A stretch of 29,288 bases of DNA from Eledone cirrhosa (Eukaryota): NCBI GenBank assembly GCA_964016885.1, contig CAXHJY010000445.1:1-29288 (forward strand), read 5' to 3'. Position 1 is the stretch's first letter. Every line of letters begins with the position of its first letter. Under the pieces are notes generated by a model that was not told where the DNA came from, did no database searches, and worked only from the letters and a program-made list of their open reading frames with translations. Positions 2,330 to 20,887 of the stretch are shown here, piece by piece. The position numbers were made by a program, and so were the translations under genes.

Positions 2330-2937
2330 GGTGGCTGCCAACTCGTTTTCGAGTACGGCCACTACTTTATATCCATGTAGGAGAACCCCTACCGATACGC
2401 TGAACGAGTGTGACTTTTTAGTCTAACCAGCGACTTCAAAACTCTGGTACAGACACTACACTTGTGACAATTATTGACACATAGTGCTGGGCCCATGGTA
2501 CCATGTGACGACAAATGCAGAGAGATCTCCAGATATAAAGCAATGCCTGTGCCGTGAAGCTTTTATAGTGAGCAAAGGCACTGCACAAAGCCAGTCCCAC
2601 TCTCTTAACCAAGATGATATTTACCAAAAAGAAGAACAAGTCAACATCATTGGATATCATCAGGGTTGCAGGTGTTATATCAGAGTTTTCCTTCTCCTAG
2701 AATTCTACCTTGACTAAGGCTAAGGGGTCATCTCTCCCGGTGATTTTGGATGGCCATTGACTCTTAAGAGCTCCTTTGACCTTTGACAGGTTTTGTTTTT
2801 AGTCCTGCAGGATGTCCAAAGTCACCCTCCTCACCAAGAAACCTTGGTGGGGTTGCCAGTTTAGTCGCCAACGACCCGACCATGAGACAGGTTGTACTGG
2901 GATACATGTTACCAGTAGCACCAACTGGTGACCTGAC
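2330..2937 (-). mobile_element. 608-bp non-autonomous RTE-derived bipartite element (SINE-like), copy A
   Basis: Colinear with 20280-20887 (about 14 substitutions by eye, no indels). The minus-strand 3' end TGGCCGTACTCGAAAACGAGTTGGCAGCCACC resembles the RTE terminus at 14199-14232. It carries a decayed C2H2-finger coding remnant at 2389-2466. Microsatellite lies on both sides. Confidence 0.85.
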
Positions 2938-3318: not shown

Positions 3319-6300
3319 CATCATCATCATCATCATCATCATTTTACGTCCGCTTTTCCCTGCTTGCAAGGGTGGGACGGGTCTTATTCAGCACAGCATC
3401 TCTCCACTCGTCACGGTCCCTCGTCATCTCCACCGTGAGCTTCAATGATCTGAGGTCTGTTCTCACCACCTCCGCCCATGTTTTTCGTGGTCTACCTCTA
3501 CCACGTCTTCCTTCAACTGGCATTTCCTGGCACTTCTTCACCCATCGGTCATCCTCCATGCGCATCACATGTCCATACCACCTCAGTCTCCTCTCCCGTA
3601 CACTACATTCTATCCCTCTCAGACACAGTTTCTCTCTCAACACATTTATGCTGGGTCGTTCACGCACATTTACACTGCACATCCAACGGAGCATGCTTGC
3701 CTCATTTCTCTCCAGCCGTCGCATATCTTCTGCGGTAGCTGCCCATGTCTCACTACCATGCAGCATCGCGCTCCTCACACAGGCATCATACAACCGGCCT
3801 TTCGTACGCAGGGAGAAACCCTTCTTCGTCAACAGAGGAAGCAGCTCCCTAAACTTCTTCCAACCCGTCCTTATTCTAGATACTATGGCCTCGGAACACC
3901 CTCCTCCCATGCTAATCTGATCTCCTAGGTACCGGAAGCTATCCACCACTTCTATAGCGCCCTCTCGCATTTGAAAAATGTGTCTATCAGTGCGACTTCT
4001 ACTGTCTAATTTCCCTGTACATCTACTGCATACATATTTCTCCCTACCTGTTAGTTTGCCTGCTATCCCGCTACATCTCTTGTGTACCCAGGACCTACAT
4101 TGTGTGCATTTTATAGAATTTATGCCAGTTCCTTTTCTGCATATCGAACATGGCCATTTCCCTGACGGAATCAGGGTTTTGTCCTCTTTTCTACTCATCA
4201 ACACTTTTGTCTTAGCTAGATTTACTCTCAGTCCTCTTGCTTCCAACTGCTGTTTCCATAGCCGGAATTTATTCTCTAGCTCCTCTACTGATTCTGCCAT
4301 AAGAGCCAGATCGTCAGCATAGAGAAGTTCCCATGGACAGCCAGTCTTAAACTCCTCTGTTATGGCTTGGAGGACTATAATGAACAAGAGCGGGCTGAGG
4401 ACCGAACCCTGATGTACTCCTACTTGTATCTGGAATTCCTCACTAAACTCCATTCCTACCCTGACTTTACTGAGAGTACCTCTGTACAAAGTTTGCACTG
4501 TCCTTACAAGCCATTCCTCAACACCCAGCTTCCTTAGGGACCACCAGATGACAGATCGGGGTACCCTATCAAAGGCCTTCTCTAGGTCAACAAAGGCTAA
4601 GTATAGTGGCTTATTCTTCTCTAAGAACCTCTCTTGCATTTGTCTCACCAAGAAGAGGGCATCTGTTGTACTCTTCCCAGGCACAAAACCAAACTGCATC
4701 TCATCTAGTTTGACCCTTTCTCTAATTAGTTGTGCTAGAATCCTTTCTGCCACTTTCATAACCTGATCTATCAGTTTTATACCCCTATAATTGCTCCTCT
4801 CCAAAGCATCCCCTTTACCTTTGTAGCAATTTATGAGAATACTGCTGCACCAGTCTTTGGGTATGACACCACCATATATAGCCTGATTGATTATGCGTGC
4901 AACCAGTTTAGTGCCTACGTCCCCTGATGCCTTCAGCATCTCAGCAACTATTCCCGATGGTCCGGCCGCCTTACCATTTTTCATTTCCCTAATCGCCTCT
5001 TGGACCCTATATTCGTCAATCTCAATAGCTGGTCCCTCTGTCGGATCTACCAAGGGTAATTTCTCTCTCTCCCATTCGTTCTCCACATTCATCAGTCTCT
5101 CATAATGACATTTCCAGGCCTCCTTTTTCTGGTCATTCGTGACACTAAGTACACCGGCATCATCCCGGACACATTTATCACCAACAACATCCTGATTTGC
5201 ATTGACACACTGCCTTGCAATGTGGAACACCGCACGCCTCTGATCTTCCCGTCGCAGAACATTGGCAAACCTCCTACTCTCTGCCTCCCTGCGTGCTAAG
5301 TACACCTGACGTCTAGCTTCTCTCTTAGTGGCTGTATATTCTTCCCTACTCCCACCCTTATTCCAAGCCTTCCATGCTAGTCTTTTGTCTCTAATAGCCT
5401 TATCTACACTGCTGTTCCACCACCAGGTCACTCTCTGTCTGGTTGGAGCTCTGCTCCAGCCACAGGTTTCATCAGTAGCCTTCAGCAAGTTGTCACGTAA
5501 GAACTTCCAGTTATTATCTATGTCATACGTCTCTAAATCGTCTTCTTTTTCATCATATACATCTTGAAGGGCTTTCCTAAATTTGAATTTTAGTGAAAGG
5601 TCTTTTAGCTTCCAGACCTTTCTTCTCCACACCTTCCTATATGTCTCATTCCATCTCTTGCTTACTGAGATATCACTAACAACTAACCTATGCTGTGGGG
5701 TACATTCTTCCCCAGGGTATGCCTTGGTATTAGACACTATCTGCCTGTCCCGCTGCCTAACTAGCAGGAAGTCAATCTGGCTTATGTGCTCACCAGATTT
5801 GTAGGTTATTAGGTGATTGGCAGGTTTCTGGAAGTTTGTGTTGCAAATAGTCAATGTACTTGCATCACAAAATTCAAGAAGTCTCACTCCTTCTTCATTT
5901 CTTGAACCGTAACCGTGCCCACCATGTACCCCAGTGTAACCATCCTGGAGCTGTCCAACATGACCATTGAAGTCTCCTGCTAGCATAACGATGTCTCCGT
6001 CCTCTGTCATTGTGGTTGTTTGCAAAAGTTGCTCATAAAAGCAGTCTTTCTCATCTTTGCCTAGGCCTGCTTGGGGAGCATAGACCGAGATGATTGTCAG
6101 TAGTCTCCTACCTACAACTAATCTAAGCTTAATTATTCGATTACTAACTCGAACTACCTCTATTGTCTTATTGATCCATTTCTCAGCCAGGAAAATGCCT
6201 ACTCCCCCTAACCCATCATCCTTACCTACCCAGAATAGCTTATAGCTAAGACGCTTGCCTACGACTAGTCTCGCAGAGGCACCCCTCCATCTCACCTCTT

Positions 6301-6599
6301 GCACGCAGCACACATCCACCTGCCTTCTCTCCAGCATCTCCGCTATTTCAGCAGACCTACCTCTGAGAGTGCCAACATTAAGTGTTGCAACTCTGAGATG
6401 CGACGTCTTCATATTTTTCTATGCTGTTTTGTTGCTGTGCTGATAAGCTTTTTGGCATTGATACACTGGTTGGATGCCCTTCCTAACACCAGCGCCACTT
6501 TACAGCATGGACTGGGTGCTTTTATTTGTGCCACCAGCACTAGAGAGGATGTCTTACTAGACTCAAGGGCCCTCTCTACCCCTCCATTTTACAGCATGG
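3319..6599 (-). mobile_element. Near-full-length RTE-clade non-LTR retrotransposon with (GAT)n tail
   Basis: Single APE-RT ORF. The stop codon is followed almost immediately by (GAT)8 at 3319-3342. About 190 bp of 5' UTR shares a motif with 22772-22890. The 5' boundary is approximate and no target-site duplication was seen. Confidence 0.9.
3344..6412 (-). CDS. RTE ORF: APE-like endonuclease plus reverse transcriptase with internal PHD-type (C4HC3) finger, 1022 aa, intact
   Basis: Endonuclease motifs TLNV, QEVRW, YAP, GDFNGH, IDFLL, QHRLV. RT motifs [37 protein letters not shown]-type C-terminus RLRWYGHV...[10 protein letters not shown]. Confidence 0.95.
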
Positions 6600-7802: not shown

Positions 7803-8081
7803 GTGTTATATTCATTGTTCCTCCTGTTGTGTTGTATGTCTACGCCATTTTTTTTTTTTGTTCAGTCTGTCTATATATTTATTTATTTATTTGCTTGTTT
7901 GTTTATCTTATTTTATTTTGTCTTCTTTGCGCATGCGTTTGCGTGTGTGTATAGTGTTATGTGTGATGTGTGATGTGTGACTAGTGTGTATAGTGTTGTC
8001 TGCTGGGTGACTAGTGTGTGTTTATGTGCTTGTGTATGTATTTATTTATCTTATTTTATTTAATTTAATTTACTTATTTAT

Positions 8082-10277
8082 TTATACTTCTCTTAGGTCA
8101 GTGTTGTTTGTTTGGGTGTTGTTGTTGTTCCACTCATTCTTTCTGTTTAGCTTTGGTCTTCTAATTTCTATTTCACTGGCCTCTCTGATTTGCCTATCTG
8201 CTGGGTCATTCCTATGTTTAGATATTATTCTAATTTCTATGTTGTCTATGTTACCGTCATGATGTTGTCTAGCATGTTCGTATAGTACTGACCCGTTTTT
8301 TCGTCCTTTTAGTTCCCCCCAGTGTTGGTCTATCCTTTCACCTATGCTACGAGCTGTCTCACCTATGTATGTTGTTGTCGTGTTTCTGCAAGTACCCTCT
8401 GTACATCTTATGCTATAGACTACGTTTCTAGTTTTACAGTTTATCCGGGGGTTCACCTTACATATGATACATTTCCTATTGGTACAGTGGGTTTTCTTAA
8501 AAGGGTAGGTTTTGCTGATCAGGGATTTTATGGTGGTTCCTGGCTTTTCTACCACCTTTATTTTTAAGTGGGTCTTTCTCAGGGCCTTTCTACACTGGTT
8601 AGCTAATTTCCCTCCAGGGGTGGCGTCCACAAACATGACACTCTGATATCTCTGGTTGTCGTACCATGATGTGGCCTTCCCTATCTTATGTCTAGCCCTA
8701 TCTAAGCTATTCCATGATTTGCTCCTGTATAGTGGGCAAATTCCTTTCATGTCCAGTTCTATGAGGGTCTTATACTTTTCCATGGCTCCTTCGTATACTC
8801 TGACTCTGTCTCTTTGGTTGTAGCCAGAGAACTGCATGCGGTTGATGAAGTGTTGGATGTGTCCTTCCATTTCTGTTGGGTCGCACATGCTGGACACATT
8901 CTTCATCACTCGTACCAAATCTGCGATCAGAATATTAAACTTAGCACTACTGGACATTGCTGAGTTTTTGAGTATCAGGTATTTGGAGGCCATGGGTTTA
9001 GCATAGTGTGAGTGGAGAATTTGGGCTCTCTCGTCTATAGTGTTAATCCAGAGTTCTGTGTCTAATACAGGTAGTCTATTGTTAGGGTGTTTGGAAGGGA
9101 AGTCTATAGTTACAGTTATACTCTGGTGTATGGAATTAGCTATCTGCTGGATGCTTTCCATCGTGCTACGTTCTAAATCAAACTTGTTAGTGCTCTCTAG
9201 TGGGGGTGTTCTTATAACTATATTGATATCGTCTACATAACGAGAGTACATGATGAGGTCTATGGAGCTTTCATTAAGGAGATCTTTAAGTCTCCTTTCC
9301 CACCATACCATGAAAAGGTTGGCAACATCGCCAGCTATGCTGACGCCGATGGCTGCTCCCTCATTTTGGGTGTAGATTTTCTCATTGAACTTAAATATGT
9401 GGCCCTTTAGGGTAGTTTTGATACTAGCCCCTATTGCATGTGCGACCATTTTTCTTACCTGATCAGTGTTTTGGGGGGTCCGTATAGCTTTGGTCCACCC
9501 AATCCACCTTCCTATGGGAGTCTTTTTAGCCATTGAGGTTATGGTGGGGGGTCTACCTCTTATAGGTCTACTAGGGCAGAAACATCTAAGGTCATGGCTG
9601 TCTAGGTAGTCAGTGTCGTAGGTAAGTCTAAGTAGGAGGCCCAGTTCGTCTGTGTCGACGTCGCAGAACTCCACCTCACTCTCAATGATCATCTCCACAC
9701 ATCTTTTCACAGCAAAATCAATGTTAATGGATGGGTACAGTGACACCACATCCATGCTGCCTATTATGCAGTTGGATAGGCTCCTGTTTTTGTTGCACTC
9801 ACTGATTCTGCTGAGGAGGTCCTCTGTACTTTCACATACATCTGGGGACATCTTGATTATGGGGCGTATAACCATTGAGAGGAAGTAGGAGATCCTGTAG
9901 TTGCTAGCTATATTAGCTCCGCATACAGGTCTTGTTGGTGGTCCTATTGTCGGGTCGTCGACTGTCTTGTGGTCTTTGCGGAGCCCATACAAGGGTGGTA
10001 TGCCATTGTTAGACGCCTGGAAGTTGTTGGCAGTGCGTCTGCTTGGCTTTAGGATGTCAGTCCACATCATCATGTGAGCGTTGAGGATTTTTTCTCTCCC
10101 ATCGTGTGTTAGTTGTGCAACTTCGCTCGTGTTGGTGATGTGGGGTTGCATTGCCTCGATGTAGTTCGGCATGCTATCTATTGACATCCTACCAGACTTA
10201 TCTGTGGGTAGACACACTACCTCACCATCCCTTGTGCGCTGCTTGAGGCTAACCAAGCCTTCTACAGGTTTTATCCC
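8082..10277 (-). pseudogene. 5'-truncated PLE RT plus GIY-YIG reading frame without a native start
   Basis: Identical to the C-terminal ~730 aa of 10313-13552. The frame is closed by TGA three codons beyond the inversion junction, and the track start is an internal TTG (Leu). Confidence 0.85.
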
Positions 10278-10312
10278 GAAATCTCATCACAGCAAACGAG
10301 AGAGATGACTTC

Positions 10313-13300
10313 ATGAGCGTCATCCGACGCGAAACGAAATATGCTCAAAACGAATGCTGTAGGCATTTCAAGAAGAAATTAGAATGGATGAATAAGAAAA
10401 AACTACAAGAAAGGAAAATCGAATATTCTCAAAAATACCCAGATAACATCGACAACATCCGTATGAGTGATGTAAAACTACCGGAAGAATTTACCAATGA
10501 CCACACAGTAAATATCTATGGGAACACTTTAATCAGTGAACAAGAACAACAAATCCTAAAGTTACCACCAAAATTTGCCATCTACAAAAAGATTAATCCT
10601 ATGGAATGCAAAACGGAGCTGGAAAAGTGTTTCACAAAAATACGTTGGAATGCAAAGGTAAACAACAACAACAACAATAATAACGGTAGTAGTAATATAA
10701 ACAATAACTCTGGGTATAGAAATAACAGCCATAACCATAACAATGGCAGGAAAGTGAGAAATAGTGATAATGGTAATAATACTAGCGATAGACAGAACAA
10801 CAACAACCACAATAATAATAATAATAGAAACGTTAACCACAGACACAGCAACAGTGACCACAGTAGTAATAACGGTAACAATACGAACAACAACAACAAC
10901 AATAACCACAGTGGTAATAATGGAAATAGTACATGTAGCAACATCAACAAAAACAAGAAACATAATAATAGTAACAACCACAATGGTAGAAATAGCAGTA
11001 ACAACAACAATAACGGTGAAGTAAACAACAATACATCTAGCAATCATAACAATAATAATATTAATGCTAAGGATAGAAACAACAACAACCACCATGATAA
11101 CAATAATAGCAACACACACAACTATGACGATAGAAATAACGACAACCCCTTAGAGAAACTATTTTTCAACCCAGCTGACAAAACATATAAGATGGGTAAT
11201 ATCTATCCTACGAGGTTACCCTTTAATAAAAGAGTTTGCATACCACAACAAATAGATGACGAGACGGAGGCACAGTTCACCATAGCTAGAAATAAGATTA
11301 GACAAGTAGTAGACAGGTACACTATGAGACAGAGCAGACCAGAGGCCCAACAACTTGGGATAAAACCTGTAGAAGGCTTGGTTAGCCTCAAGCAGCGCAC
11401 AAGGGATGGTGAGGTAGTGTGTCTACCCACAGATAAGTCTGGTAGGATGTCAATAGATAGCATGCCGAACTACATCGAGGCAATGCAACCCCACATCACC
11501 AACACGAGCGAAGTTGCACAACTAACACACGATGGGAGAGAAAAAATCCTCAACGCTCACATGATGATGTGGACTGACATCCTAAAGCCAAGCAGACGCA
11601 CTGCCAACAACTTCCAGGCGTCTAACAATGGCATACCACCCTTGTATGGGCTCCGCAAAGACCACAAGACAGTCGACGACCCGACAATAGGACCACCAAC
11701 AAGACCTGTATGCGGAGCTAATATAGCTAGCAACTACAGGATCTCCTACTTCCTCTCAATGGTTATACGCCCCATAATCAAGATGTCCCCAGATGTATGT
11801 GAAAGTACAGAGGACCTCCTCAGCAGAATCAGTGAGTGCAACAAAAACAGGAGCCTATCCAACTGCATAATAGGCAGCATGGATGTGGTGTCACTGTACC
11901 CATCCATTAACATTGATTTTGCTGTGAAAAGATGTGTGGAGATGATCATTGAGAGTGAGGTGGAGTTCTGCGACGTCGACACAGACGAACTGGGCCTCCT
12001 ACTTAGACTTACCTACGACACTGACTACCTAGACAGCCATGACCTTAGATGTTTCTGCCCTAGTAGACCTATAAGAGGTAGACCCCCCACCATAACCTCA
12101 ATGGCTAAAAAGACTCCCATAGGAAGGTGGATTGGGTGGACCAAAGCTATACGGACCCCCCAAAACACTGATCAGGTAAGAAAAATGGTCGCACATGCAA
12201 TAGGGGCTAGTATCAAAACTACCCTAAAGGGCCACATATTTAAGTTCAATGAGAAAATCTACACCCAAAATGAGGGAGCAGCCATCGGCGTCAGCATAGC
12301 TGGCGATGTTGCCAACCTTTTCATGGTATGGTGGGAAAGGAGACTTAAAGATCTCCTTAATGAAAGCTCCATAGACCTCATCATGTACTCTCGTTATGTA
12401 GACGATATCAATATAGTTATAAGAACACCCCCACTAGAGAGCACTAACAAGTTTGATTTAGAACGTAGCACGATGGAAAGCATCCAGCAGATAGCTAATT
12501 CCATACACCAGAGTATAACTGTAACTATAGACTTCCCTTCCAAACACCCTAACAATAGACTACCTGTATTAGACACAGAACTCTGGATTAACACTATAGA
12601 CGAGAGAGCCCAAATTCTCCACTCACACTATGCTAAACCCATGGCCTCCAAATACCTGATACTCAAAAACTCAGCAATGTCCAGTAGTGCTAAGTTTAAT
12701 ATTCTGATCGCAGATTTGGTACGAGTGATGAAGAATGTGTCCAGCATGTGCGACCCAACAGAAATGGAAGGACACATCCAACACTTCATCAACCGCATGC
12801 AGTTCTCTGGCTACAACCAAAGAGACAGAGTCAGAGTATACGAAGGAGCCATGGAAAAGTATAAGACCCTCATAGAACTGGACATGAAAGGAATTTGCCC
12901 ACTATACAGGAGCAAATCATGGAATAGCTTAGATAGGGCTAGACATAAGATAGGGAAGGCCACATCATGGTACGACAACCAGAGATATCAGAGTGTCATG
13001 TTTGTGGACGCCACCCCTGGAGGGAAATTAGCTAACCAGTGTAGAAAGGCCCTGAGAAAGACCCACTTAAAAATAAAGGTGGTAGAAAAGCCAGGAACCA
13101 CCATAAAATCCCTGATCAGCAAAACCTACCCTTTTAAGAAAACCCACTGTACCAATAGGAAATGTATCATATGTAAGGTGAACCCCCGGATAAACTGTAA
13201 AACTAGAAACGTAGTCTATAGCATAAGATGTACAGAGGGTACTTGCAGAAACACGACAACAACATACATAGGTGAGACAGCTCGTAGCATAGGTGAAAGG

Positions 13301-13552
13301 ATAGACCAACACTGGGGGGAACTAAAAGGACGAAAAAACGGGTCAGTACTATACGAACATGCTAGACAACATCATGACGGTAACATAGACAACATAGAAA
13401 TTAGAATAATATCTAAACATAGGAATGACCCAGCAGATAGGCAAATCAGAGAGGCCAGTGAAATAGAAATTAGAAGACCAAAGCTAAACAGAAAGAATGA
13501 GTGGAACAACAACAACACCCAAACAAACAACACTGACCTAAGAGAAGTATAA
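10313..13552 (+). CDS. PLE polyprotein: Asn-rich N-terminal insert, reverse transcriptase, Cys linker, GIY-YIG endonuclease (1079 aa)
   Basis: PTDKSG, RPVC, MDVVSLYPSI, EGAAIG, RYVDD, LPVLD; linker CTNRKCIIC; endonuclease NVVYSIRCTEGTC...YIGETARS..ERIDQH...EH...REASEI...PKLN. The frame is open upstream to the junction at 10278 (NLITANERDDF-M), so this ATG is probably internal. Confidence 0.93.
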   Translation: MSVIRRETKYAQNECCRHFKKKLEWMNKKKLQERKIEYSQKYPDNIDNIRMSDVKLPEEFTNDHTVNIYGNTLISEQEQQILKLPPKFAIYKKINPMECKTELEKCFTKIRWNAKVNNNNNNNNGSSNINNNSGYRNNSHNHNNGRKVRNSDNGNNTSDRQNNNNHNNNNNRNVNHRHSNSDHSSNNGNNTNNNNNNNHSGNNGNSTCSNINKNKKHNNSNNHNGRNSSNNNNNGEVNNNTSSNHNNNNINAKDRNNNNHHDNNNSNTHNYDDRNNDNPLEKLFFNPADKTYKMGNIYPTRLPFNKRVCIPQQIDDETEAQFTIARNKIRQVVDRYTMRQSRPEAQQLGIKPVEGLVSLKQRTRDGEVVCLPTDKSGRMSIDSMPNYIEAMQPHITNTSEVAQLTHDGREKILNAHMMMWTDILKPSRRTANNFQASNNGIPPLYGLRKDHKTVDDPTIGPPTRPVCGANIASNYRISYFLSMVIRPIIKMSPDVCESTEDLLSRISECNKNRSLSNCIIGSMDVVSLYPSINIDFAVKRCVEMIIESEVEFCDVDTDELGLLLRLTYDTDYLDSHDLRCFCPSRPIRGRPPTITSMAKKTPIGRWIGWTKAIRTPQNTDQVRKMVAHAIGASIKTTLKGHIFKFNEKIYTQNEGAAIGVSIAGDVANLFMVWWERRLKDLLNESSIDLIMYSRYVDDINIVIRTPPLESTNKFDLERSTMESIQQIANSIHQSITVTIDFPSKHPNNRLPVLDTELWINTIDERAQILHSHYAKPMASKYLILKNSAMSSSAKFNILIADLVRVMKNVSSMCDPTEMEGHIQHFINRMQFSGYNQRDRVRVYEGAMEKYKTLIELDMKGICPLYRSKSWNSLDRARHKIGKATSWYDNQRYQSVMFVDATPGGKLANQCRKALRKTHLKIKVVEKPGTTIKSLISKTYPFKKTHCTNRKCIICKVNPRINCKTRNVVYSIRCTEGTCRNTTTTYIGETARSIGERIDQHWGELKGRKNGSVLYEHARQHHDGNIDNIEIRIISKHRNDPADRQIREASEIEIRRPKLNRKNEWNNNNTQTNNTDLREV

Positions 13553-13830
13553 ATAAATAAGTAAATTAAATTAAATAAAATAAGATAAATAAATACATAC
13601 ACAAGCACATAAACACACACTAGTCACCCAGCAGACAACACTATACACACTAGTCACACATCACACATCACACATAACACTATACACACACGCAAACGCA
13701 TGCGCAAAGAAGACAAAATAAAATAAGATAAACAAACAAGCAAATAAATAAATAAATATATAGACAGACTGAACAAAAAAAAAAATGGCGTAGACATACA
13801 ACACAACAGGAGGAACAATGAATATAACAC

Positions 13831-13868: not shown

Positions 13869-14240
13869 TAAACTATATATATATGTGTTTGTCTATATTG
13901 TATCTGTATTATTTTTGACCGCCGGTCAGTCAATGGCAACATTGAGGACCGAGTAAGCTAGATCGCAGATATATATATATAAAAGACAGCGAGAAGCGAA
14001 AACCAACCAAACAGTGAGTGTGTTCTGTTATTAATTCTGGCAATATTACGCAAATATGACCCTCCCCAAATATAACAATATCTGTTTCGACACACGATTT
14101 CATATAAAAAACCTCGCAAAACTAATACATATATATACATACATATATATATACATACATATATATATATACATATATATATATACATACATACATATGA
14201 TGATGGCTGCCCCCTCGTTATCGAGTATGGCCATTGCACA

Positions 14241-16400
<2,160 letters not shown>

Positions 16401-16586: not shown

Positions 16587-18674
16587 CTAACAGTGCTGCG
16601 ATCGAATGTGGCTTTTTAGCCCAGCCAATGATCCAAAATGTCTTGCACAGAGTCGGCAACCAAAACATTTACTGGGAATAGTCGGCTGTGGTTGGAGTTC
16701 GTGTACTTTTGCATGTCGCTTGAGTCCTCCTGCTGATTTACATTCTCTACCACATGTTTGGCAAGCATGATGAGTAGCATCTCCAACAGCAGCCTGGTAG
16801 TCAACCACTGGTCTTACTTTATGACTGCGAAGATGACTTTCGAGTCCAGCTTTGCTTAGGCAGAGTCTCGCACAGACGCTGCATGTCAGAAACATAGGAG
16901 GACCCTCGCCGTCTGGAAGTGCAACAGCAATACCCTTCCTCACGTCCCGCTTTACTTTCTCGTGTGCGATTCGAGATGCCTCAAAGGCAACTTTTCCCTC
17001 ATATACAGTCTTTCTCCATTTATTACGATCAGCAGCAATATTTTCCCATGTATCAGCAGAGATGTTAGCGTCTTTCAGAGAGGCCTTCAAGGAATCCTTA
17101 TACCTCTTTTTTGGTTTATGTGGCGGTCGTTTTCCTTTAACCAACTCTCCATAGAAGAGTTGTTTTGGTATTCTAGAATCCTTCATCCTGGCAAGGTGAC
17201 CACTCCAACGGAGTCGCTGCTTAAGCACAAGAGCTTCTATACTGTCACACATAGAGCTTTCCAAAATCTCGACATCACTGATGTGGTCCCTCCAGCGAAC
17301 GCCATGTATCCGTCTGAGACACATCTGATGGAAACGCTCCAATTGCTTAAGGTGGCGTCGATATGTGACCCAGGTCTCGCAGGCATAAAGAAGACAAGAG
17401 AGTACACATGCCCTGTACACCTTTACCTTTGTCCTCCTGCATATGTCTCGCCGACCCCAGAGTCGCCTTTCTAGCTTTCCGAAAGCATCACTTGCTTTCC
17501 TAATCCTAAGTGAGATTTCACTGTCAAGGTTGCCGTATCGATTGACAGTGCTTCCCAGGTAGACAAACTGATCAACCACTCCAAGTCGTTTGCCATACAC
17601 ATAGATGTTTGGTTCAGTGTACTGCCTACCAGGTGCAGGTTGGTACATGACGACGGTTTTCTTGAGACTGACAGTCAAACCCAGGGCAGTGCAAGCGTCA
17701 GAAAATACATTCAAAATGTGCTGCATATCACTCTCTGTGTGCGCTACAAGATCGCAATCATCTGCATACAAGAGGTCTCTTATGACTGATGTAAATACTT
17801 TTGTCTTCGCAGCAAAGCGCCTGATGTTAAATATGCTGCCTGAGGTTCGATATCGGATGTAAACACCATGCTCGCAATTCCTGAATGCAATACAGAAAAC
17901 CATTGCAAAGTATATGGCAAACAGGGTCGGTGCTGGAATATCCCCCTGTTTCACTCCATTTTTTACTGAGATAGGCTCCGACATGTTACCTCCGACATTA
18001 ACCCAAGCCCTCATGTCGTCATGGAAAGACCTAACTAAAGCAAGGAACTTATCAGGGCAACCAAGTTTCTGGAGAACCTTCCATAATGCATCTCTGTTGA
18101 CAGTATCGAAAGCCTTTGTCAGATCGACAAAAACCTGATACAGATCCAAGCCCTGTTCAATGCACTTCTCCTGGAGCTGTCTAGCTGAGAAGATCATATC
18201 AGTAGTGCCGCGTCCAACACGAAAACCAGATTGACTTTCAGGAAGGACACAATCTGCAATGTGTGTCAGCAGACGGTCCAGAAGCACCCTACATAAAACT
18301 TTCCCCACGACAGAAAGCAATGATATACCTCTGTAGTTCCCACAATCATTCCTGTTACCCTTTCCCTTGTACAAGACCACCATTACCGCATCTCTCCAGT
18401 CCTCAGGCACGGATTCATTAGCCCATATCCTTCCAAACAGAGAGTGAAGATGTTGCAGGAGTCTCTCACCACCATATTGTAGGAGCTCAGCATGTATGCC
18501 ATCCATACCTGGAGATCTTCCACTGTTCAGCTTCGAAATAGCCACTGCAACCTCCACAAGTGTCGGAGGCTCTGCGAGAGCTACTTTCACAGGACTTTCC
18601 GTAATGAGATTGAGGAAATCTTCACTGACGACAGACGGCTGATTCAAAAGATCATCAAAGTGCTCCCGCCACCA
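16587..18674 (-). CDS. Partial RTE ORF: RT plus three C-terminal C2H2 zinc fingers (endonuclease lost by 5' truncation)
   Basis: [50 protein letters not shown]. Fingers CSVC..HLRSH, CQTC..HAKVH, CRLC..HIRSQH. The first ~19 aa of the track ORF come from microsatellite. Confidence 0.92.
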
Positions 18675-20279
<1,605 letters not shown>

Positions 20280-20887
20280 GGTGGCTGCCAACTCGTTTTC
20301 GAGTACGGCCACTACTTTATATCCATGTAGGAGAACCCCTACTGATGCGCTGAACGAGTGTGACTTTTTAGTCCAGCCAGCGACTTGAAAGCTCTGGTAC
20401 AAACACTACACTTGTGACAATTATTGACACATAGTGCTGGGCCCATGGTACCATGTGACGACAAATGCAGAGAGATCTCCAGATATAAAGCAATGCCTGT
20501 GCCGTGAAGCTTTTATAGTGAGCAAAGGCACTGCACAAAGCCAGTCCCACTCTCTTAACCAAGATGATATTTACCAAAAAGAAGAACAAGTCAACATCAT
20601 TGGATACCATCAGGGTTGCAGGTGTTATATCAGAGTTTTCCTTCTCCTAGAATTCTGCCTTGACAAAGGCTAAGGGGTCATCTCTCCCGGTGATTTTGGA
20701 TGGCCATTGACTCTTAAGAGCTCCTTTGCCTTTTGACAGGTTTTGTTTTTAGTCCTGCAGGATGTCCAAAGTCACCCTCCTCACCAAGAAACCTTGGTGG
20801 GGTTGCCAGTTTAGTCGCCAACGACCCGACCATGGGACAGGTTGTACTGGAATACATGTTACCAGTAGCACCAACTGGTGACCTGAC
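20280..20887 (-). mobile_element. 608-bp non-autonomous RTE-derived bipartite element, copy B
   Basis: About 97.7% identical to 2330-2937 by eye. Contains an intact C2H2 finger frame [25 protein letters not shown] at 20339-20416. Confidence 0.87.

What the first reader, a model, noticed from the sequence alone, without database searches (positions are those of the whole stretch)
20280..20887. Bipartite RTE-derived SINE-like family that keeps its partner LINE's last C2H2 finger and 3' hairpin
Seen: two full 608-bp copies (2330-2937 and 20280-20887) with identical ends, about 14 substitutions apart, both on the minus strand. The 3' part encodes [25 protein letters not shown], which aligns with the final finger [25 protein letters not shown] of the RTE at 16587, including the stop position. 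It ends in a CTCG-loop-CGAG...GGCAGCCA hairpin like that at 14199-14232. The 5' part contains CTAGGAGAAGGAAAACTCTGA, which I recall from RTE 5' UTRs (unverified). Inference: an internally deleted (5' UTR plus 3' end) non-autonomous element mobilised in trans by a zinc-finger RTE related to the one in this window. Bipartite RTE derivatives are known in general, but this family and pairing may be undescribed.
Basis: partly seen in the sequence, partly recalled or inferred. Interest (0 to 1): 0.72.

Follow-up and report, generated by a model that had tools for sequence, protein, structure and literature searches.

The report
Shrunken retrotransposon outliving its parent LINE
This 608-letter repeat is a jumping gene that lost its 3.4-kb middle and was copied over 30,000 times; every full-length parent copy examined is broken, so its newest copies are likely made by a distantly related active jumping gene with a similar tail.

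Summary
Observation confirmed, and the parent was found. The 608-bp element is an internal-deletion derivative of a ~4.06-kb RTE LINE with three C-terminal C2H2 fingers. Bases 1-428 are the parent's 5' UTR (mostly 95-98% identical); bases 429-608 are its last 180 nt (mostly 94-97%); both ends coincide. A junction probe gives 31,716 matches, against 37 for the parent's 5' continuation. Copies sit in TA/TATG microsatellites and show 5' truncations and one 5' inversion. The finger is a passenger: no purifying selection. The window's RTE is not the parent (57% protein identity). The parent looks dead: 0 of 37 copies has an intact ORF, about 2% diverged. Yet a subfamily of at least 349 copies, about 0.3% diverged, exists. 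The window's RTE family is active and shares 26 of 30 hairpin bases and the tail-less 3' junction, so it likely mobilises the young copies (inferred). Known kind (bipartite non-autonomous RTE); no tRNA head. Look-ups of earlier scan notes found no match. Hits in other organisms look like contamination.

The parts
20280..20887 (-). Full-length copy of the 608-bp bipartite non-autonomous RTE; member of the youngest subfamily (six changes from the family majority)
   Evidence: 40 of 40 scored hits are 100% identical over 608 bp; 349 exact matches to a 63-nt probe holding two of the six changes; majority comparison
20460..20887 (-). 5' part (element 1-428) = start of the parent LINE's 5' UTR; stops about 50 nt before the parent's likely start codon
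   Evidence: mostly 95-98% identical to the 5' ends of full-length parent copies, same first bases
20788..20887 (-). Structured head shared with a sister bipartite family; first hairpin (about 20869-20880) differs between the families by paired changes; role in making the 5' end not shown
   Evidence: (z -1.3, not significant alone); no ribozyme family in Rfam at E up to 10
20630..20650 (-). Conserved RTE 5' UTR motif, also in the RTE-derived half of squid Ceph-SINEs
   Evidence: PMC5786205 supplement passages; inside the 68.6% match to the window RTE family's 5' UTR
20280..20459 (-). 3' part (element 429-608) = last 180 nt of the parent LINE: end of the second finger, linker, third finger, stop, 3' UTR
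   Evidence: mostly 94-97% identical to parent 3' ends
20345..20410 (-). Third C2H2 finger of the parent; passenger sequence (stop at 20339-20341)
   Evidence: Pfam; pN/pS 1.3 across copies; 2.6% non-CpG variation against 1.2-1.8% in the 5' part
20281..20312 (-). 3' terminal hairpin, likely the signal recognised by the RTE protein
   Evidence: fold -14.8 kcal/mol, z -2.9; 1.5% non-CpG variation against 3.1% in the adjacent spacer; 3' end intact in 68 of 71 copies
2330..2937 (-). Second full-length copy, older (10 differences from the family majority); last His of the finger lost
   Evidence: differences read against the majority
16587..18670 (-). 5'-truncated copy of the active zinc-finger RTE family ('family A'); not the parent; likely present mobiliser (left edge exact, right edge approximate)
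   Evidence: 150 of 150 scored hits 100% identical in protein; 57% protein identity to the parent
14199..14245 (-). 3' hairpin of the same family-A copy, separated from its ORF by an inserted LINE
   Evidence: same hairpin follows the stop codon and microsatellite in other copies
14370..16400 (+). 5'-truncated LINE inserted in the (TAA)n tract of the family-A 3' UTR; likely R4/Dong type (label from a recalled endonuclease motif, not tested); edges approximate
   Evidence: ORF 14374-16326, Pfam RVT_1, junctions

Best explanation
The element is a non-autonomous retrotransposon made by one internal deletion of a 4.06-kb zinc-finger RTE LINE, keeping the LINE's first 428 and last 180 bases, and its youngest copies are likely made by a different, active zinc-finger RTE (the family seen at 16587) because the parent looks dead. 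Shown: the two halves and both ends match the parent; about 3,450 bases including the start codon are gone; over 30,000 copies; insertion into TA/TATG microsatellites; 5' truncations and a 5' inversion; no selection on the finger; no intact parent among the copies examined. Inferred: transcription by RNA polymerase II from the retained 5' UTR; recognition of the 3' hairpin by an RTE protein in trans; target-primed reverse transcription primed at the AT that follows the 3' end; the deletion arose by a template jump at a short GTC/GTCA repeat; the bulk of copies (about 2% diverged) was made by the parent while it lived, and the 0.3% subfamily by family A.
For: Origin: eight copies fetched carry both element ends about 4.0 kb apart around an ORF with endonuclease, RT and three fingers; more. 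Copy number: 31,716 (control 0) against 227 for a parent 3' ORF probe (control 4) and 37 for the parent 5' continuation. Retrotransposition marks: of 71 copies taken from a position-ordered list, 68 have the 3' end intact and 34 are full length; one copy is 5'-inverted (L083); 62 of 65 3' flanks begin with AT. Dead parent: longest ORF in 37 copies is 863 aa, against about 1,180 needed; two protein searches list parent-like hits with open frames of at most 721 and 863 aa, then drop to family A at 53-58%; 16 parent ORFs are 1.9-3.0% from their majority. Young subfamily: 349 exact probe matches, 16 mismatches in 5,206 bases over 10 loci; its change at position 497 is in none of 55 parent 3' ends. 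Family A: 0.06-0.3% pairwise among 6 copies, about 70 of 150 hits with frames of 1,200 aa or more (counted by eye), hairpin 26 of 30 identical, and the same tail-less junction into ATGTATGT/ATATATAT, unlike the PHD-bearing RTE with its (GAT)n tail (only 9 such ends).
Against: Cross-mobilisation is indirect: no assay. Genome searches score only the best 150 candidates, and one assembly can miss a polymorphic or unassembled intact parent. Family A's hairpin folds weakly by itself (z -0.35). One broken full-length parent copy (L180) has ends only 3 of 608 bases from the short element's majority while its ORF is 2.2% diverged; this is unexplained and may mean conversion between short copies and parents, which blurs dating. 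The 10 young loci were picked by an exact peptide match, so 0.3% is biased low. Target-site duplications could not be fixed because flanks are microsatellite; only one case had non-simple sequence on both sides. Variation counts are not independent, since subfamilies share changes.
Confidence: 0.72

Rival explanations
1. Same origin, but the young copies were made by a last intact parent copy that is missing from this assembly or died very recently; no partner change.
For: The element's 3' end is the parent's own, so the parent protein would be the natural partner. Searches are capped at 150 scored candidates. L180 has ends nearly identical to the short element's majority.
Against: An active LINE normally also leaves young copies of itself; none of 16 parent ORFs is under 1.9% diverged, 0 of 37 is intact, and both protein searches ran past the parent hits into family A.
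Confidence: 0.2
2. The retained finger is functional: a 35-aa micro-protein (ATG at element 442) is made and helps the RNA be copied.
For: An in-frame ATG precedes the finger; 42 of 68 copies keep ATG, frame and C2H2 pattern; Pfam match.
Against: pN/pS 1.3 overall and 78 non-synonymous to 29 synonymous distinct changes on 82 to 26 sites; the region varies more than the 5' part and hairpin; a subfamily seen at three loci has the last His changed and a 28-nt duplication; the sister family and other deletion copies lack the finger.
Confidence: 0.04
3. The identical young copies come from gene conversion or assembly polishing, not recent retrotransposition.
For: Over 30,000 near-identical donors exist; L180 hints at conversion.
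Against: The young type differs from the majority at six positions, so polishing would push the other way; young copies have distinct flanks (30 of 30) and their own 5' truncations and an inversion.
Confidence: 0.04

Closest known systems
Bipartite non-autonomous RTE LINEs (Bov-A from Bov-B, RTESINE1/2, WALLSI3, MAR4_MD, RTE-N2_Lch; Kojima 2018, PMC5786205, parts 1-4 of 5 read)
   Same: 5' end plus 3' end of an RTE LINE joined by internal deletion; no ORF; no small-RNA head; the paper expects polymerase II transcription and dependence on the LINE.
   Different: The 3' part reaches 118 nt into coding sequence and carries a whole C2H2 finger because the parent's 3' UTR is only about 60 nt; the parent appears dead while the derivative is still young. 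The paper describes dependence on the original LINE.
Ceph-SINEs (OegopSINE, Sepioth-SINE1, SepiaSINE; PMC5786205 text and supplement passages)
   Same: Carry the same conserved RTE 5' UTR motif.
   Different: They have a tRNA head and CORE-like body; this element has neither, and its head is the LINE's own 5' end.
RTE-2_OV of Octopus vulgaris (PMC9115989, passages read)
   Same: RTE LINE with a C2H2 finger and a microsatellite starting at the ORF end, like family A here.
   Different: Four published primers mismatch family A and the parent at 5-7 of 20 bases, so neither is that element; the passages read mention no short derivative.
Perere-3 RTE with a 5' twister-variant ribozyme (PMC8501958, passages read)
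   Same: RTE LINE with a structured RNA at the exact 5' end.
   Different: No twister or HDV-like match here; self-cleavage is untested.

Membership tests
Bipartite non-autonomous RTE (RTE-N type) | 5' part is the 5' end of an RTE LINE | tested here: met
   1-428 matches parent 5' ends at mostly 95-98%, same first base
Bipartite non-autonomous RTE (RTE-N type) | 3' part is the extreme 3' end of the same LINE | tested here: met
   429-608 matches parent 3' ends at mostly 94-97%, same last base
Bipartite non-autonomous RTE (RTE-N type) | Parent is an RTE-type LINE (single ORF, APE plus RT) | tested here: met
   Single ORF aligned over 1,175 aa to family A, which has Pfam endonuclease and RVT_1; conserved RTE 5' UTR motif. 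No named Repbase RTE reference was in the tree.
Bipartite non-autonomous RTE (RTE-N type) | Amplified as a unit by retrotransposition, no RT or endonuclease coding | tested here: met
   31,716 junction matches; 5' truncation, inversion, intact 3' ends
Bipartite non-autonomous RTE (RTE-N type) | Target-site duplications | tested here: inconclusive
   52 of 67 full-length copies show a 6-30 nt repeat, but flanks are microsatellite, so chance is not excluded
Bipartite non-autonomous RTE (RTE-N type) | Mobilised in trans by an RTE protein; polymerase II transcript | not testable with these tools
   Needs an assay and RNA data
SINE in the strict sense (tRNA, 5S or 7SL head; Ceph-SINE) | Small-RNA-derived head with polymerase III promoter | tested here: not met
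   ARAGORN 0 genes; no such Rfam hit; head equals the LINE's 5' end
5' self-cleaving ribozyme of LINEs (HDV-like, twister) | Known ribozyme fold at the 5' end | tested here: inconclusive
   No Rfam ribozyme hit at E up to 10; no descriptor search was run; a paired-change hairpin is present
RTE-2_OV | Sequence identity of parent or family A to RTE-2_OV | tested here: not met
   4 of 4 primers tested mismatch at 5-7 bases

The most novel reading that the evidence does not exclude
A short derivative out-numbered its parent LINE more than 100-fold, outlived it, and now rides on a LINE of another lineage (57% protein identity) without changing its tail: a natural, dated partner switch showing that zinc-finger RTE proteins read a shared ~30-nt hairpin across lineages.
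Probability: 0.6. Interest if true: 0.5.

Novelty: new member of a known kind. Interest (0 to 1): 0.36.

Why it matters
The class is known, so this is mainly a well-resolved new family: about 0.5% of a 3-Gb genome by rough estimate (31,716 copies of up to 608 bp), with parent, junction and ages in hand. The added value is the apparent partner switch. Parent, short derivative, a sister derivative and an active cousin LINE all end in variants of one small hairpin, which makes the question of how strictly RTE proteins recognise their RNA directly testable. The young subfamily would also supply presence/absence markers.

Tried and rejected
Window RTE as direct parent: rejected; only element 192-398 matches its 5' UTR (68.6%) and its full-length copies start with a different head. 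A 654-aa open frame containing the peptide was microsatellite read-through in front of a truncated copy. Two degenerate probes built on the guess that HLSSH was the end of the second finger found 2 and 9 places, short-element variants apart from one place with no match to the element; the guess was partly wrong, since the first His comes from the 5' UTR. Horizontal transfer: runs labelled with 16 other organisms hold 56-73% of sampled words. I laid 4 of these 16: each gave one near-majority or window-like contig at depth 3-69, against about 1.2 million in organism A's run, and one also gave four low-depth variant pieces. Two raw-read runs of organism K gave 0 reads in the 1-2% read, which the tool marks as no test; two other runs of organism I hold next to none of the words. 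No RNA holder was listed. Rfam and ARAGORN found nothing specific. The protein tree is the quick version only; it puts parent and family A in one clade (support 100) but not as sisters. Literature searches listed no paper on this family; Repbase and Dfam were not available, and files 5-8 of the PMC9115989 supplement were not searched.

Full report
Observation. Two 608-bp minus-strand copies lie at 20280-20887 and 2330-2937, differ at 14 positions without gaps and are flanked by TA/TATG microsatellite. The peptide, its alignment to the last finger of the RTE at 16587 and the hairpin match at 14204-14233 (26 of 30) are as described. The window's genome G000 is 3.0 Gb; an earlier scan note calls it an octopus, which I did not test.

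It is a large, dispersed, partly very young family. All 40 scored hits were 100% identical over 608 bp, and the 30 fetched had different flanks. A 24-nt probe at element 386-409 (one mismatch) has 31,716 matches, control 0; this includes the few parent 5' UTRs. Of 71 copies from 40 regions picked out of the first 100 listed places, 68 have an intact 3' end, 34 are full length, mean divergence from the majority is 2.0%, and 62 of 65 3' flanks start with AT. Locus L083 has a 5' inversion (1-377 inverted, 377-608 forward). These are marks of target-primed reverse transcription (established knowledge). Target-site duplications cannot be fixed in microsatellite.

The window's RTE (family A) is a relative, not the parent. 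Full-length copies encode about 1,180 aa with endonuclease, RT and three C-terminal fingers. Their 3' UTR is a microsatellite followed by the hairpin, so 14199-14245 is this copy's own end, displaced by a 2-kb LINE insertion. Only element 192-398 matches family A's 5' UTR, at 68.6%, and family A has a different long head.

Finding the parent. A loose end in contigs laid on the junction gave a 20-nt probe with 227 matches, control 4. Most of the 30 fetched loci continue upstream into RTE coding sequence. Longer fetches showed complete elements of about 4.0-4.07 kb with the short element's first and last bases: element 1-428 is the 5' UTR and 429-608 the last 180 nt. About 3,450 nt are deleted, including the likely start codon some 50 nt past the break. 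Both breakpoints carry GTCA; 3 of 37 parent copies read GTCGTC at the 5' break, which would make GTC an exact direct repeat. At least five other single loci show different deletions of the same parent, so such deletions recur and this one succeeded. Parent and family A are 57% identical in protein; a quick tree of 33 rows places them in one clade with two unnamed proteins but not as sisters. C-terminal fingers are common among the 91 homologues.

The finger is a passenger. It is present because the parent's 3' UTR is short. Across the 71 copies, non-CpG variation is 2.6% in the coding remnant and 3.1% in the spacer, against 1.2-1.8% in the 5' part and 1.5% in the hairpin; pN/pS is 1.3, and distinct changes are 78 to 29 on 82 to 26 sites. 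These counts share subfamily history and are not independent. In the other direction, 42 of 68 copies keep an ATG-led intact finger, about what 2-3% drift would leave. A subfamily at three loci has lost the last His, and a sister bipartite family with the same head (80%) and family A's hairpin carries no finger.

The parent looks dead; the element does not. All 37 places with the parent's 5' continuation were fetched; the longest ORF is 863 aa and 20 near-full-length copies are all broken. Protein searches from each end list about 100 and 21 parent-like hits with open frames of at most 721 and 863 aa, then fall to family A. Sixteen parent ORFs are 1.9-3.0% from their majority, similar to the bulk of short copies. 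The subfamily of the 20280 copy differs from the majority at six positions, has 349 exact matches to a 63-nt probe and about 0.3% divergence in 10 loci chosen by peptide match. Family A is as young (0.06-0.3% pairwise; about 70 of 150 hits with frames of 1,200 aa or more; 4,473 exact matches to its hairpin, shared with the sister family). Element, parent and family A all run straight from the hairpin into ATGTATGT or ATATATAT, whereas the PHD-bearing RTE has a (GAT)n tail. I infer that family A now mobilises the element. Against this: no assay, capped searches, one assembly, a weak fold for family A's hairpin, and the unexplained copy L180, whose ends are 3 of 608 from the short element's majority while its ORF is 2.2% diverged.

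5' end. Many copies start at the same G, 81 of 96 preceded by TAT, so the true start may lie a few bases upstream. The first hairpin differs between the two bipartite families by paired changes, but the head's fold is not better than shuffles (z -1.3) and Rfam finds no ribozyme. Internal promoter versus self-cleavage is open.

Other organisms. Runs under 16 other labels hold over half the sampled words. The four I laid gave single contigs at depth 3-69, one with extra low-depth variants. Trace contamination fits best; see Tried and rejected.

Comparison. Kojima 2018 (PMC5786205; parts 1-4 of 5 and supplement passages) describes bipartite non-autonomous RTEs and says only RTE, Ingi, Vingi and R2 make them. 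This element meets the structural definition and is not a SINE in the strict sense. PMC9115989 (passages; supplement search without files 5-8) describes RTE-2_OV, which is neither family here by primer test. PMC13282606 (passages and supplement search) counts 893 recently active unclassified SINE families in Octopus vulgaris without sequences, so this family could be among such unnamed entries. PMC8501958 and PMC6685494 were seen as passages; the latter raises competition of SINEs with their LINE up to the LINE's demise. PMC6007223 was seen as abstract only. Eight searches listed no description of this family; Repbase and Dfam were not searchable.

Verdict. Real, well resolved, a new member of a known kind. 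Origin by internal deletion is close to certain; the partner switch is likely (about 0.6-0.7) and is the part worth testing. Interest 0.36.

Noticed in passing
window 7849-10277 and 11357-13785: Perfect 2,429-nt inverted repeat around a 1,099-aa ORF (10253-13552) whose 3' part is duplicated in reverse; looks like a very young Penelope-like element in inverted arrangement (label from recalled motifs; Pfam gave no hit).
   Followed up: no
window 14370-16400; L051: A LINE, likely R4/Dong type, has inserted into the (TAA)n tract inside family A's 3' UTR, both in the window and at L051: one LINE carries the target of another.
   Followed up: partly
L014:2650-3195, L042:2530-2900, L073:1780-2110, L089, L124: Sister bipartite family: same head (80%), 5' UTR like family A (88%), family A's hairpin, no finger. 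It suggests family A once had this head and later swapped its 5' end.
   Followed up: partly
L065:1-560, L021:2150-2500: Pieces of a third zinc-finger RTE lineage and its own bipartite derivative, ending in a more diverged hairpin.
   Followed up: no
window 3344-6418: Second RTE family with a PHD finger after the RT core (Pfam PHD passes cut-off); already noted by earlier scan findings.
   Followed up: partly
L180 (G000:C2:8276300-8281300): Broken full-length parent whose two ends carry all the short element's diagnostic bases while the ORF is as diverged as other parents; source lineage or gene conversion.
   Followed up: partly
L074, L082, L124, L198-L217: Copies often sit in clusters a few hundred bases apart, inserted into the microsatellite beside earlier copies of the same or related families.
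   Followed up: no
sequencing runs X4-X19: Runs under 16 other organism labels contain the element at trace depth; a caution for horizontal-transfer claims based on very high-copy repeats.
   Followed up: partly
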